Assembly (NCBI RefSeq): GCF_053078305.1
Contig: NZ_CP166879.1
Reading direction: 5' to 3' (one strand)
DNA: 64,000 bases
This document shows positions 27,001 to 30,000 of this stretch, in pieces. Each line of letters opens with the position of its first letter. Within the stretch, counting starts at the first letter, position 1. Position numbers: made by a program.

Positions 27001-30000
27001 GGCGCGGCCTTCCGCCACATCCTGCCCCCGGCCGGTCAGCTCTGCGATGAAATAACCGTTAATCAGAACACGTTTGCGCACCAGTCCCTGCTCGGCAAGC
27101 CAGGCAATGTGGGTGTGAACGGTGTCGCGGGACACGCGGTGGCCGTAATCATCCAGACAGTCCTGGAGCACGGATTCACCCAGTTCACCGTTGTAATCTG
27201 CCAGCGACCGCAGAATGACCAGACGCTGATCTTCAGTAATGAAATCACTCATTGCGTTTTTTTCCTTACAGCCTGCTCCAGCAGCAGTTCGTTCTGATAG
27301 GAGACAGAGCGGAGCGTGGCGTTCGTGGTTTTCAGTTCACCCCGCAGGGTCACGATTTCCACATTCAGACGGTTGACCTCGGCTTCTGTCGGCAGTGACG
27401 ACAGACGGGTTTCCACCTTCTCAACGCGGTCGGAGAGTTTTTCAAAGGCCTCGCGGGGGACAAACGTTTTGCGCATCAGCGCCATGAATATCCCGCCAGC
27501 GGTTGCCGTCGCCGAAAGGATCGGCACAACATAATCTTTAACGATGCTGACCCACATGACGGGCCTCCATGATGTTCTGGCAGTTCACACAACGGATGGC
27601 ATCCGGCACAGCAACAAGACGTGCGGCGGGGATCTCTCCGCCACAGTCCGCGCAGACACGTCTGCCCGGAGCATCCACTGCCCGGCGCTTACGTGTCAGC
27701 CGGTTACAAAGGGCGCGTTCTGATCCCCGCTCCATCACAGCCTGAGCACGATCTGAATCATCCATACCTTTTTCCTTACTTCGTCTTTCCTGCCGGAACA
27801 GCAGGCGTTCCGGCCATATCAGTAAATTCATGTTGTCGCCGCGCCTCCAGACGACGAATACTGGCCTTATCCACGTTGCAGTTCTTGATCACCGCCAGCA
27901 GTTGCAGGTTGTAAGTGACCGATGCCCCAAACGTGAACGGCTCCGGCGCAGGAGGGACCAGGCAGTCAGCCAGCCATTCAGCGGGGATCGGCACCGGCTT
28001 CACAGGCACGTATTTCACAGACGGCCCGGCGCACCCGGTCAGCCACATCATCAGGAACAGGGACAGAGGCCGCAGGCACTGCTGCCAGCGACCGGCGGAC
28101 AACGCTCTGCTGCTCCTCGCTGTGCTGAATGTTCTGTTGCTTTTCATTCGTGGCCGCCTCACTGATTTGTGAAATGAGTTGCAGGGTGTGCTGCTGATTT
28201 GCCAGCACCTGACGCGCCTCATCCCGCTCACGCACAAGCACCTGATTATTGTCTTCAAGGCGCTGCGTCTTCTGGTGCATTCCCCATATCGCGGCAACCA
28301 GTACAGCGATAGTCCCCAGCGCCGCCATGCACGCCCCGGCAATCAGGGCCGGTAAGGCGTTATTCACCGCAGCCACAGGACACCCCGTAACAGCAGTACC
28401 GCACACAGCAGCGCTATCATGAGCGGTCGCCAGAAGCGGTTCAGACTTTCGGCAAGTCGTAGCGACATAACCATTCATCCGCCGAACGGCGGGCCTCAAG
28501 GCCGGGAAGTTTCACCCCCTTTGAATAAATCCAGCGGATATACTGCTTACAGGACGCGGGCATCTGCCCGGCATTGATCAGGCGCAGAAGCGTGGAGTTG
28601 CGAAAGTTCGTTTCACCGGCCCAGAAGATCCACGAAGCCAGCGCCACCGTCTGACCACGGGTAAGCGGCACCTGAACACGCCGATCAATGGCCGCAAAGG
28701 CCCATTTCATGTCCTTTTCCAGTAGTTCCAGGCATTCTTCATCTGTCAGGGTCATACCCGGTTTCACATCCGGGCCGGTATGGCCGTAACAGATGGTGGG
28801 TGTACCGGTGGGATCGATATACGTGGAGTTTTCTTTCCCTTCCCAGTAACCGGTGTAATGCGTGGCAATCGTGAACGTCCCGGCACCGGCCAGAACAAGG
28901 GCAATCAGCTTTTTACGCAGTGGTGCGGGGAGTTTTGGCATTGTTACGCTGTCTCATGATGTTCTCTGAGTCAGCGTAACGGTGAAGGAGAGGCGGCAGG
29001 CTTTGCGGAATATCAGAAAAGTGGCGGTTGCGTTCTTGCCAGATGCAGACGGCGCTGTTCACGTATGACGGTATAAATCTGGGTTTCTGACATCCGGTAA
29101 TGGCGGCGAAGGGATTCAATCTTCTCGCCCCGGTCCCAGCGCGAAAATATCTCATTGTTTCGCAGCTCGGCAAAGAGAGATTCCCCGACCGGCAGGTAAT
29201 AACCCCGTCCGCCCATATAGGCTGCCTGAGCCGCAGCCACCTTGCGTGCCAGTTTACCGGCCAGTACCGGCTCAATCCCCTGACGCTGAAGTTCTGCGCC
29301 GGTGACTTCAACCAGTTCTGACAGGGTCCGCGGCCAGTTCTTTTTGAGAACATCATCAGGGATGTCATCAAGGCGGTCGATAAGGGCGTGCAGTTGCTCA
29401 CTGTCACCACCAAACATGCTCATCTGAGTTTCTGCCATATCAGCCTCCGGTTCTCGCGTTCCCGGTAAGTTTAAAATAAAAATCCCGCGTTGTGGCGGGA
29501 TTTGGGGTTAACGGGGAAGTGATTTTTCATACTGCCTGCAAACGGCGTCATACCCCATCAGCGTGCGTTCGGGCATTCCCATCGCGGCCAGCATTTTGCG
29601 GCGGTGCCATCGCTTGAGACGCTCCAGCACATCTGAGGCCAGGGCGGGGTGTTGCTCCAGCCACTGCCAGTTTGCCACACCTTCGCCGCCGTTCTGCGCG
29701 GCCGTCTGCGATTTCACCCAGCGGTTAAGAGCGGTTTCCGCACCATCAGAGATAAAGCCCTGCCGGTGCATCACTTTCCAGATGGCGCGAATTCTGGCGG
29801 TCACCGTACCCGGTTTTAAGGCCCGGTTAACCGGTTTCTGACGCACTTTAAAACCGCGTTTTTTGAAAACATCCAGCACGCGGGATAACTCACCGGGTGA
29901 CATATCCCGGCAACTGGTTTTGCCGGTGGCTGCCAGTAGTACGAATGTGTAGGTCTCATCATCCAGGGCAAGCTCGCGCTTTGCCACATGAATGGCGGAT

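What the first reader, a model, noticed from the sequence alone, without database searches (positions are those of the whole stretch)
29013..29438. Only one Mor/C-family activator, placed directly upstream of the endolysin gene
Mu encodes two paralogous activators (Mor for the middle promoter, C for late promoters) separated from lys by additional genes. Here a single Mor/C-family ORF is 72 bp upstream of the endolysin gene and no second paralogue was seen, suggesting a simplified middle/late regulatory cascade.
Basis: partly seen in the sequence, partly recalled or inferred. Interest (0 to 1): 0.25.

Follow-up and report, generated by a model that had tools for sequence, protein, structure and literature searches.

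The report
Single C-type late activator, Mu-like prophage
The gene is real and is the only Mor/C-family activator in this Mu-like E. coli prophage, but it is simply the counterpart of phage Mu's late activator C sitting where C always sits (just before the lysis gene), and having one activator rather than two is the normal state for Mu-like phages, so the finding is ordinary.

Summary
Observation confirmed. Window 29013..29438 (- strand) encodes a 141-aa Mor/C-family protein (Pfam PF08765, E 2.8e-32). It lies 71 bp upstream of a phage lysozyme gene (28441..28941) and 69 bp downstream of gemA. No second family member was found by Pfam, a six-frame custom HMM or hhalign. As a control, the HMM recovered both Mu Mor and Mu C.

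The interpretation needs correcting. In Mu, C is itself directly upstream of lys (94 bp). The protein here is C-like: 39% identity to C versus 27% to Mor, and its best PDB matches are C. What is absent is Mor plus the middle-operon genes gp18-20.

One activator is the rule in every relative I examined and in D3112, HS6 and MuM16-1.

I found two candidate C-dependent late promoters, upstream of lys and of the protease gene I: CTGAWATYCCGCAAARCCYGCC-N16-TAYGCT. The box differs between activator lineages.

The C-like gene sits behind a conserved intrinsic terminator followed by a -10-like hexamer. What turns it on is inferred, not shown: read-through of early transcription, possibly with self-activation.

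The prophage is a known, RefSeq-annotated element present in 230 of 5426 complete E. coli genomes. Low interest.

The parts
29013..29438 (-). Single Mor/C-family gene, a C-type late transcription activator of 141 aa
   Evidence: Pfam PF08765 E 2.8e-32; PHROG 532; 39% identity to Mu C versus 27% to Mu Mor; PDB 9l0x/9vw8 'Late transcription activator C' E 1e-26; the linker residues reported as invariant in the family are present as G76 G77 Y81 P83 G85 (PMC2582627)
29508..30017 (-). gemA-like gene, last gene of the early region
   Evidence: Pfam GemA PF06252 E 6.1e-29; annotated 'gp16 family protein' in RefSeq relatives
29480..29503 (-). Intrinsic-terminator hairpin AAATCCCGC-CACAAC-GCGGGATTT followed by TTATTTT, lying between gemA and the C-like gene
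   Evidence: Terminator scan gives 9 pairs, 5 of them G-C, plus a T-run; centroid fold; unique in the window against 0 expected; the same arms occur in independently found relatives L007 and L010
29468..29473 (-). -10-like hexamer TAAACT, 6 nt after the hairpin, with no -35; candidate promoter for the C-like gene (inferred)
   Evidence: Read directly from the sequence; equivalent TATACT / TATAAT / TATATT hexamers lie 4-9 nt after the stem in L010, L035, L041 and L070; not called by the sigma-70 consensus scan
28995..29016 (-). Candidate activator-binding box of the Plys-like late promoter (CTGATATTCCGCAAAGCCTGCC); it starts on the stop codon of the C-like gene
   Evidence: 19/24 ungapped match to the box upstream of gene I; 0 of 2000 shuffles and 0 of 76 real-sequence controls reach 19
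28973..28978 (-). -10 hexamer TACGCT of the Plys-like promoter, 16 nt after the box
   Evidence: Same spacing and the same TAYGCT as at the gene I promoter
28441..28941 (-). Endolysin (phage lysozyme), first gene of the lysis/late block
   Evidence: Pfam PF00959 E 6.3e-37; 'lysozyme' in RefSeq
21070..21091 (-). Candidate activator-binding box of the PI-like late promoter (CTGAAATCCCGCAAAACCCGCC)
21048..21053 (-). -10 hexamer TATGCT of the PI-like promoter, 6 nt before the gene I start codon
   Evidence: the same hexamer-N6-ATG geometry is seen in L007 and L010; the start codon is supported by the N-terminal alignment with Mu I
19908..21041 (-). Head protease/scaffold gene (Mu I homologue), first gene of the head-tail late block
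   Evidence: 'phage protease' in RefSeq; Mu-like_Pro_N in relatives; alignment with Mu I

Best explanation
The ORF is the only late-gene activator of a Mu-like transposable prophage of E. coli, and it is the counterpart of Mu C.

Shown here: it is a full-length Mor/C-family protein of the C type. It occupies the C position, between the end of the early region (gemA) and the endolysin gene. No other family member exists in the prophage.

Shown computationally: two promoters lacking a -35, one upstream of lys and one upstream of the head protease gene I, share a 22-bp box at identical spacing from a TAYGCT -10 hexamer. The box has a different sequence in each activator lineage examined, and it resembles the C-binding regions of Mu Plys and PI (shared AATCCCGC core).

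Inferred: the protein binds this box and recruits host sigma-70 RNA polymerase, as Mu C does, switching on lysis, head and tail genes from these two promoters.

Inferred: the cascade has two tiers, early then late. Because the activator gene lies behind an intrinsic terminator and has no Mor to activate it, it is most likely primed by partial read-through of early (Pe-derived) transcription across that terminator. The -10-like hexamer that overlaps the terminator tail may provide a weak or activator-dependent start. A repressor-independent constitutive promoter is excluded by logic, since it would trigger lysis in lysogens.
For: Family and subtype.

Position and Mu comparison.

Uniqueness of the gene.

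Same gemA - hairpin - single C-like gene - lysozyme order in independent lineages with 84%, 57% and 49% identical activators. A 45%-identity relative (L011) also has a single activator, but it lacks the hairpin and has unrelated genes on both sides of the activator. Of 21 IMG/VR contigs with a strong C-like hit, 20 have a lysozyme homologue directly downstream, and each has exactly one Mor/C hit.

Late-promoter box: 19/24 match between the lys and I upstream regions in each of four lineages, at a constant offset, with 0 of 2000 shuffles reaching 19. Full box-N16-TAYGCT pattern.

Terminator.

No terminator-like site lies between the C-like gene and lys.

The phage family appears active: copies with an identical activator are annotated as insertions with target duplications inside two Stx phages.
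Against: No expression or binding data exist for this prophage; every promoter call rests on sequence.

Only two boxes were found, whereas Mu has four C-dependent promoters. A degenerate third site could have been missed.

The box consensus was derived from the two sites it then 'finds', so one search is circular. Independent support comes only.

The hairpin looks like an efficient terminator (9-bp stem plus T-run), so read-through may be too low to prime expression. In Mu, C expression requires Mor (PMC4287176), so read-through evidently does not suffice there (my inference).

The PI-like -10 hexamer is only 6 nt from the ATG. This implies either a leaderless mRNA or a mis-placed -10.
Confidence: 0.7

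Rival explanations
1. A non-homologous early protein replaces Mor. An early-region regulator outside the Mor/C family activates the -35-less promoter that overlaps the gemA terminator, so a three-tier cascade persists with a different middle activator. The 183-aa multi-HTH protein at 31511..32062 and GemA are candidates.
For: The promoter region after the hairpin has a -10-like hexamer but no -35, which is typical of activator-dependent promoters. The 183-aa early protein matches PHROG 323 'transcriptional regulator' at E 2e-56 and carries weak HTH hits.
Against: The 183-aa protein is present only in the closest E. coli relatives and is absent from L005/L007, L010 and L011, which share the gemA / single C-like architecture. 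It therefore cannot be the general solution. No candidate binding motif was identified.
Confidence: 0.15
2. Self-activation through the hairpin dyad. The terminator's DNA palindrome AAATCCCGC-N6-GCGGGATTT is also a binding site for the C-like protein, as Mor binds a dyad-symmetry element at Mu Pm that appears to coincide with the predicted t9.2 terminator stem. This would give positive feedback after a little read-through. It is compatible with the best explanation as an add-on.
For: The arms contain the AATCCC core shared by all late boxes: Mu ATAATCCCG, window AAATCCCGC, L007 GTAATCCC, L010 GGAATCCC. The arm sequence, not just the pairing, is identical in lineages whose activators are only 49-57% identical. 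In Mu the annotated Pm interval (9163..9233) overlaps the predicted terminator (9179..9200).
Against: The best ungapped match of the C-upstream region to either late box is 14-15/24, equal to the shuffle mean of 14.8. The dyad centre would lie about 30 bp upstream of the start, roughly 13 bp closer to the -10 than my recollection of the reported Mor and C binding sites in Mu. The arms do not change between lineages although the late boxes do. The same hairpin occurs in at least 93 viral contigs without a Mor/C gene nearby, so it also behaves as a generic terminator.
Confidence: 0.2
3. The prophage is a defective deletion derivative of a Mu-type phage. It lost mor, Pm and gp18-20, and can no longer run its late programme.
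For: The region between gemA and the C-like gene is only 69 bp, against about 1.2 kb in Mu. The prophage copy in the window carries an IS66-family insertion in its invertase gene.
Against: The same compact arrangement is found in many diverged lineages and in 230 complete E. coli genomes. Copies with an identical activator are annotated as Mu-like insertions, each with a target-site duplication, inside two different Stx phages. All late genes and both late promoters look intact. Sp18, the Mu-like prophage of O157 Sakai, is judged intact in PMC2669165 (I did not compare this prophage with Sp18).
Confidence: 0.03
4. A second Mor/C paralogue exists but was missed, either because it lies in the roughly 2 kb of prophage outside the window or because it is too divergent to detect.
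For: The window lacks the prophage S-end.
Against: The complete related phage in LC727881 has a single hit over its entire length. The HMM control finds Mu Mor at 1.6e-31 without having seen it. hhalign gives at most 6.1% probability for every other ORF.
Confidence: 0.02

Closest known systems
Bacteriophage Mu late transcription activator C (gp21; PDB 9l0x, 9vw8)
   Same: Same family and subtype (39% identity over 137 aa). Same size (141 versus 140 aa). Same conserved linker residues GG..Y.P.G. Same genomic position directly upstream of the endolysin gene with a promoter in the gap. Candidate target promoters lack a -35 and carry an upstream box containing the AATCCCGC core seen at Mu Plys.
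   Different: There is no Mor and no Pm-driven middle operon (gp18-20) upstream. The gene follows gemA after a terminator. Only two candidate target promoters were found (lys, I) rather than four (lys, I, P, mom). The box sequence differs from Mu's CCATAACCCC-type site. No terminator was detected between the activator gene and lys.
Bacteriophage Mu middle operon regulator Mor (gp17; PDB 1rr7, 9l0y)
   Same: Same Pfam family. In both phages a Mor/C-family gene is the first gene after gemA.
   Different: Only 27% identity. Mor overlaps gemA by 4 bp and is part of the early transcript, whereas this gene is separated from gemA by a terminator. Mor's target, Pm driving a second paralogue, does not exist here.
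Single Mor/C-family activators of other Mu-like phages (Pseudomonas D3112 orf19, Shewanella MuM16-1 p13, Pseudoalteromonas HS6 gp44, Burkholderia KS10 gp27)
   Same: Each examined genome or genome part has one family member, placed at the early/late boundary downstream of gemA (PMC2628397, PMC4378225).
   Different: In D3112 and MuM16-1 the activator gene overlaps gemA and so belongs to the early operon, and other genes separate it from the endolysin. Here it is insulated by a terminator and abuts the endolysin gene.
Mu-like prophages of Shiga-toxin-producing E. coli ('inserted Bacteriophage Mu-like phage' in LC727881 and LC727895)
   Same: 97% DNA identity over the region and a 100% identical activator. 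RefSeq relatives already label the gene 'Mor transcription activator family protein' (WP_000852377.1).
   Different: The chromosomal insertion site differs: the prophage abuts ftnB and the junction is not seen in any of 5426 complete genomes. This copy also has an IS66-family insertion in the invertase gene.

Membership tests
[quoted passage not shown] | Significant full-length match to the family profile | tested here: met
   111.3 bits against a cut-off of 24.9, profile positions 2-107 of 107; custom HMM 2.6e-50; hhalign probability 100%
[quoted passage not shown] | Small protein (about 100-150 aa) with an acidic N-terminal half and a basic C-terminal half (PMC2582627) | tested here: met
   141 aa. 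Counted from the sequence: residues 1-70 have 12 D/E and 8 K/R; residues 71-141 have 8 D/E and 12 K/R.
[quoted passage not shown] | Invariant beta-strand linker residues (C numbering G70, G71, Y75, P77, G79; PMC2582627) | tested here: met
   G76, G77, Y81, P83 and G85 are invariant in alignment A2; G76, Y81 and P83 are invariant across 45 diverse members
[quoted passage not shown] | C-terminal helix-turn-helix DNA-binding domain and dimer/tetramer fold | not tested
   Only sequence alignment over the whole length to the solved C and Mor chains; no structure prediction was run
Mu C-type late activator (functional orthologue of gp21) | Closer to C than to Mor | tested here: met
   105 versus 51.6 bits by BLASTP; 98.2 versus 41.4 bits by phmmer; 7-member neighbour-joining clade with Mu C, with Mor outside; PDB E 1e-26 versus 2e-9
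Mu C-type late activator (functional orthologue of gp21) | Gene directly upstream of lys with a late promoter in the gap | tested here: met
   71-bp gap containing box-N16-TACGCT; Mu has a 94-bp gap containing Plys
Mu C-type late activator (functional orthologue of gp21) | Several late promoters without a -35 that share an upstream activator site | tested here: met
   Two sites (lys, I) match 19/24 at identical spacing, with 0 of 2000 shuffles reaching 19. The box differs between activator lineages. Binding itself was not testable.
Mu C-type late activator (functional orthologue of gp21) | Four target promoters, including P (tail) and mom | tested here: not met
   No further site scores above 19/28, which is background level. 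No mom gene is present; a SASA/DUF6645 esterase gene occupies that position.
Mu C-type late activator (functional orthologue of gp21) | Transcribed from a Mor-dependent middle promoter | tested here: not met
   No Mor or other family member exists in the prophage; a terminator plus a -10-like hexamer lies upstream instead
Mu Mor-type middle activator | Last gene of the early operon, overlapping gemA, and activating a promoter that drives a second paralogue | tested here: not met
   69-bp gap with a terminator after gemA; no second paralogue

The most novel reading that the evidence does not exclude
In this widespread enterobacterial lineage of Mu-like prophages, the late activator gene is insulated from early transcription by a terminator whose stem sequence is conserved, not merely its pairing. 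That stem could double as a DNA dyad site carrying the AATCCC core of the late boxes. If so, the terminator-promoter module would be a self-priming switch: a trickle of read-through makes the C-like protein, which then activates its own gene and the late promoters. This would replace Mu's separate Mor tier with one protein and one bifunctional DNA/RNA element. A corollary is that the head operon message may be leaderless, because the -10 hexamer lies exactly 6 nt before the gene I ATG in three lineages.
Probability: 0.15. Interest if true: 0.35.

Novelty: new member of a known kind. Interest (0 to 1): 0.15.

Why it matters
It matters little beyond annotation. The result fixes the identity of the gene as a C-type late activator rather than a generic 'Mor'. 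It corrects a misconception about Mu's gene order. It shows that Mu's three-tier cascade is the exception among Mu-like phages.

The by-products are modestly useful: lineage-specific late-promoter boxes upstream of lys and I, and a conserved terminator/-10 module upstream of the activator gene. They give concrete, cheap targets for anyone studying induction of the Mu-like prophages that hop into Stx phages of pathogenic E. coli. They also pose one clear open question: what turns on the activator when there is no Mor.

Tried and rejected
1. The search for related loci with family alignments A1 (45 sequences) and A2 (10 sequences) failed because no stretch was conserved enough. I used the look-up of encoding contigs and a DNA-pattern scan instead.

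2. I tried counting paralogues from tblastn 'places per record'. It is not sensitive enough: true two-paralogue Mu-type phages show 1 or 2 places. I replaced it with HMM searches.

3. I looked for a late-promoter box upstream of the C-like gene as a sign of autoregulation. Matches were 14-16/24, at background level, so this was rejected.

4. I looked for third and fourth late promoters (P-like, mom-like). None scored above background. A partial site at 32130..32140 (-) lies inside a gp12-like gene, with TATGCTGCC 11 nt further away than in the real sites. I judged it to be chance.

5. I considered the 183-aa HTH protein as a Mor substitute. It is absent from the more distant single-activator relatives.

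6. I scanned IMG/VR for the hairpin, expecting it to be specific to Mu-like phages. It is not: 93 of 120 loci carry no Mor/C gene. The 27 positive loci were selected by the pattern, so they do not independently show hairpin conservation. Only L007 and L010 do.

7. Literature: I found no statement about this prophage's activator. The B3 genome paper (PMC516594) is not held, and I could not consult Morgan et al. 2002. PMC3299994 contained nothing relevant.

8. The fold of the gemA-C leader is not unusually stable as a whole (z -1.49). Only the hairpin itself is notable.
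Full report
**What is at the coordinates**

On the minus strand, window 29013..29438 is a 141-aa ORF with an ATG start and a GGAGG 5 nt upstream. It matches Pfam Mor (PF08765) at E 2.8e-32 over the full profile. It matches PHROG 532 'late transcriptional activator' at E 3e-45.

- The next gene downstream (28441..28941) is a phage lysozyme (PF00959, E 6.3e-37). The gap is 71 bp.
- The gene upstream (29508..30017) is GemA (PF06252), 69 bp away.

**Context**

The region belongs to a Mu-like transposable prophage on the minus strand.

- Its repressor end is at window 39256 (TGTAACCAGGTGAATCA...). That end abuts sequence matching ftnB.
- The window starts about 2 kb inside the other end of the prophage.
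- The same phage, 97% identical in DNA and with a 100% identical activator, is annotated as 'inserted Bacteriophage Mu-like phage' with target-site duplications inside two Stx phages.
- A 1.7-kb segment around the gene occurs in 230 of 5426 complete E. coli genomes. There RefSeq labels the gene 'Mor transcription activator family protein'.

**Is there a second paralogue?**

No. Five tests agree:

- phmmer with Mu Mor, Mu C and the ORF itself, run against all 1513 six-frame ORFs of at least 25 aa in the window, finds only this ORF. The next best hit is E 0.16.
- An HMM built from 145 diverse representatives, taken from a full HMMER search of 1.84 billion proteins, scores this ORF at 2.6e-50 and the next best at E 2.5.
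- Pfam scans of about 30 prophage ORFs at E up to 1 give no other Mor hit.
- hhalign of 30 ORFs against the family alignment gives 100% probability for this ORF. All others are at or below 6.1%, and those are short helix-turn-helix-only matches.
- The complete related phage in LC727881 also has one hit only, including the part missing from the window.

As a sensitivity control, an HMM built without any Mu sequence recovers both Mu C (4.8e-47) and Mu Mor (1.6e-31) from translated Mu DNA.

**Which paralogue is it?**

It is the C type.

- BLASTP gives 39% identity and 105 bits to Mu C, against 27% and 51.6 bits to Mu Mor. For comparison, Mor and C are 37% identical to each other.
- The best solved-structure matches are 'Late transcription activator C' (9l0x, 9vw8; E 1e-26). 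Mor (1rr7) scores 2e-9.
- In a neighbour-joining tree of 148 family members, the ORF and Mu C fall in a 7-member clade, while Mu Mor joins only at a 74-member node. That sample is biased towards the query.
- The linker residues reported as invariant in the family (PMC2582627) are present as G76 G77 Y81 P83 G85.

**Correction of the premise**

In Mu (AF083977) the order is:

- gemA (8233..8784)
- mor (8781..9170), overlapping gemA
- terminator and Pm
- gp18, gp19, gp20
- C (9963..10385)
- terminator and Plys
- lys (10480..)

C is thus directly upstream of lys, 94 bp away. The position seen in the window is the normal C position. What is absent is mor, Pm and gp18-20.

**How unusual is one activator?**

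It is not unusual.

- Relatives found through the protein have a single Mor/C hit within ±10 kb. Their activators are 84%, 57%, 49% and 45% identical (L008/9, L005-7, L010, L011).
- The first three of these lineages share the gemA - (terminator) - activator - lysozyme order.
- L011 does not fit that order. Three reverse-strand genes separate gemA from the activator, and the endolysin is a different family lying two genes downstream.
- 27 IMG/VR contigs each have one hit. Of the 21 strongly C-like ones, 20 have a lysozyme homologue directly downstream; the remaining locus is cut at its end.
- The complete genome of D3112 and the fetched 28-kb parts of HS6 and MuM16-1 each contain one.
- Only the Mu / D108 / SfMu type is known to have two (my knowledge).

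There is one real structural difference within the single-activator phages. In D3112 and MuM16-1 the activator gene overlaps gemA, so it is the last early gene. In this lineage it is insulated by a terminator and abuts lys.

**Target promoters**

The regions upstream of lys and of the head protease gene I share a common pattern, CTGAWATYCCGCAAARCCYGCC-N16-TAYGCT.

- It occurs at 28973..29016 and 21048..21091 on the minus strand.
- The 19/24 ungapped match is never reached in 2000 shuffles (mean 14.8, maximum 18) or in 76 real-sequence controls.
- The same 19/24 relationship, at the same offsets from the start codons, holds in three other lineages but with different box sequences. L007 has ATTGTTAAnnnARCGTAATCCC and L010 has CTGnGACnCCGnAAnCCCAnCCGC.
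- All boxes share an AATCCC-type core with Mu Plys (CCATAATCCCGCACCTGCC).

That is what lineage-specific activator sites should look like. Binding itself is inferred.

No further sites were found. No strong terminator-like hairpin appears between gene I and the end of the tail-fibre genes at about 6163. So two late transcription units may suffice.

The PI-like -10 hexamer lies exactly 6 nt before the gene I ATG in three lineages. There is no Shine-Dalgarno sequence, and the start codon is supported by alignment with Mu I. This hints at a leaderless message.

**How is the activator gene itself switched on?**

This is the one open point.

- Between gemA and the gene lies a 9-bp-stem hairpin, AAATCCCGC-N6-GCGGGATTT, followed by a T-run (29480..29503).
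- A -10-like TAAACT follows 6 nt later. There is no -35 and no late box.
- The same arms, followed 4-9 nt later by TATACT, TATAAT or TATATT, occur in independently found relatives.
- In L010 the module is duplicated on both sides of an inserted secreted-protein gene.
- No terminator separates the activator gene from lys.

A constitutive promoter here would be lethal to lysogens. Expression must therefore depend on early transcription.

My preferred reading is priming by read-through of the early terminator (inference). Self-activation through the palindrome is possible, because the arms carry the AATCCC core. It is unsupported, however: the spacing is off by about 13 bp, the arms do not vary between lineages as the late boxes do, and the hairpin also occurs in at least 93 unrelated viral contigs. 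A non-homologous early activator cannot be excluded. The one annotated regulator, the 183-aa PHROG 323 protein, is missing from more distant relatives that share the architecture.

**Verdict**

It rests on a wrong picture of Mu and overstates how unusual the arrangement is.
- The gene is an ordinary C-type late activator of a known, already annotated prophage family, and a single activator is the common state of Mu-like phages.
- Interest is low. The small residue of novelty is the conserved terminator/-10 module in front of an activator that has no Mor to turn it on.

Noticed in passing
window 2606..5705 (gin fragments 5400..5705 - and 2606..2869 -; IS ORFs 2997..3422, 3419..3769, 3800..5413 +): The prophage's Gin-like serine invertase gene is split by an IS66-family element (HTH_Tnp_1, TnpB_IS66 and DDE_Tnp_IS66 ORFs). 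The N-terminal resolvase domain and the C-terminal HTH_7 part lie on either side, so tail-fibre inversion is probably frozen in this copy.
   Followed up: partly
window 21729..21816 (+), in the 125-nt gap between the F-like (21816..23141 -) and G-like (21217..21690 -) genes: A tRNA-like element lies antisense to the phage genes. Rfam tRNA scores 30.0 bits (gathering score 29). The acceptor, D and T arms fit, but the anticodon region is 26 nt instead of 11. ARAGORN does not call it. Mu has no gap at this position, since F and G overlap there.
   Followed up: partly
window 21041..21053 (-); L007 and L010 upstream of gene I: The -10-like hexamer of the PI-like promoter is exactly 6 nt from the gene I start codon in three lineages (TATGCT/CACACT-N6-ATG), with no Shine-Dalgarno sequence. 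This suggests a leaderless head-protease mRNA.
   Followed up: partly
window 39256/39257 junction and 1..199: The prophage c-end (TGTAACCAGGTGAATCA) abuts sequence matching ftnB. No complete E. coli genome of 5426 carries this junction, as expected for near-random Mu-type insertion. The other prophage end lies about 2 kb outside the window.
   Followed up: partly
window 458..2515 (-): A 685-aa protein with a SASA sialate-O-acetylesterase domain and DUF6645 lies downstream of gin, where Mu carries com/mom. It is only partly similar to the corresponding gene in LC727881.
   Followed up: no
L010 9376..10000: In a relative with a 49% identical activator, a 140-aa gene for a signal-peptide-like protein is inserted between gemA and the activator gene. 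It is flanked on both sides by a copy of the AAATCCCGC hairpin plus TATACT module, which looks like a moron bounded by duplicated terminator-promoter cassettes.
   Followed up: partly
L011 7229..7298 (+): A type II hammerhead ribozyme (Rfam RF02276, 65.7 bits against a gathering score of 37) lies in the early region of a Mu-like prophage whose activator is 45% identical to the one here. That prophage also carries a TIR-domain gene between gemA and the activator gene.
   Followed up: no
L032, L061, L106, L122, L123, L132 (IMG/VR): A divergent, AT-rich group of Mor-family genes (HMM E about 1e-3) has the same AAATCCCGCC hairpin upstream. About 55 nt later comes an extended -10-like TGTGATAAT, which resembles TGTGATGAAT within the annotated Mu Pm interval.
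   Followed up: no
window 31511..32062 (-): A 183-aa early protein has three Myb/HTH-like repeats (PHROG 323 'transcriptional regulator', E 2e-56). It is present only in the closest E. coli relatives and is weakly similar to Mu gp9.
   Followed up: partly
window 27538..27831 (-): A TraR/DksA-type C4 zinc-finger protein is encoded inside the lysis/late block, between the spanin genes and the DUF2730 (releasin-like) gene. It is conserved in relatives and in HS6 and could modulate RNA polymerase during late transcription.
   Followed up: no
window 5768..5910 versus L001 1..143: A 143-bp stretch is 100% identical to LC727881 but inverted. This is consistent with the invertible tail-fibre segment being in the opposite orientation in the two copies.
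   Followed up: no
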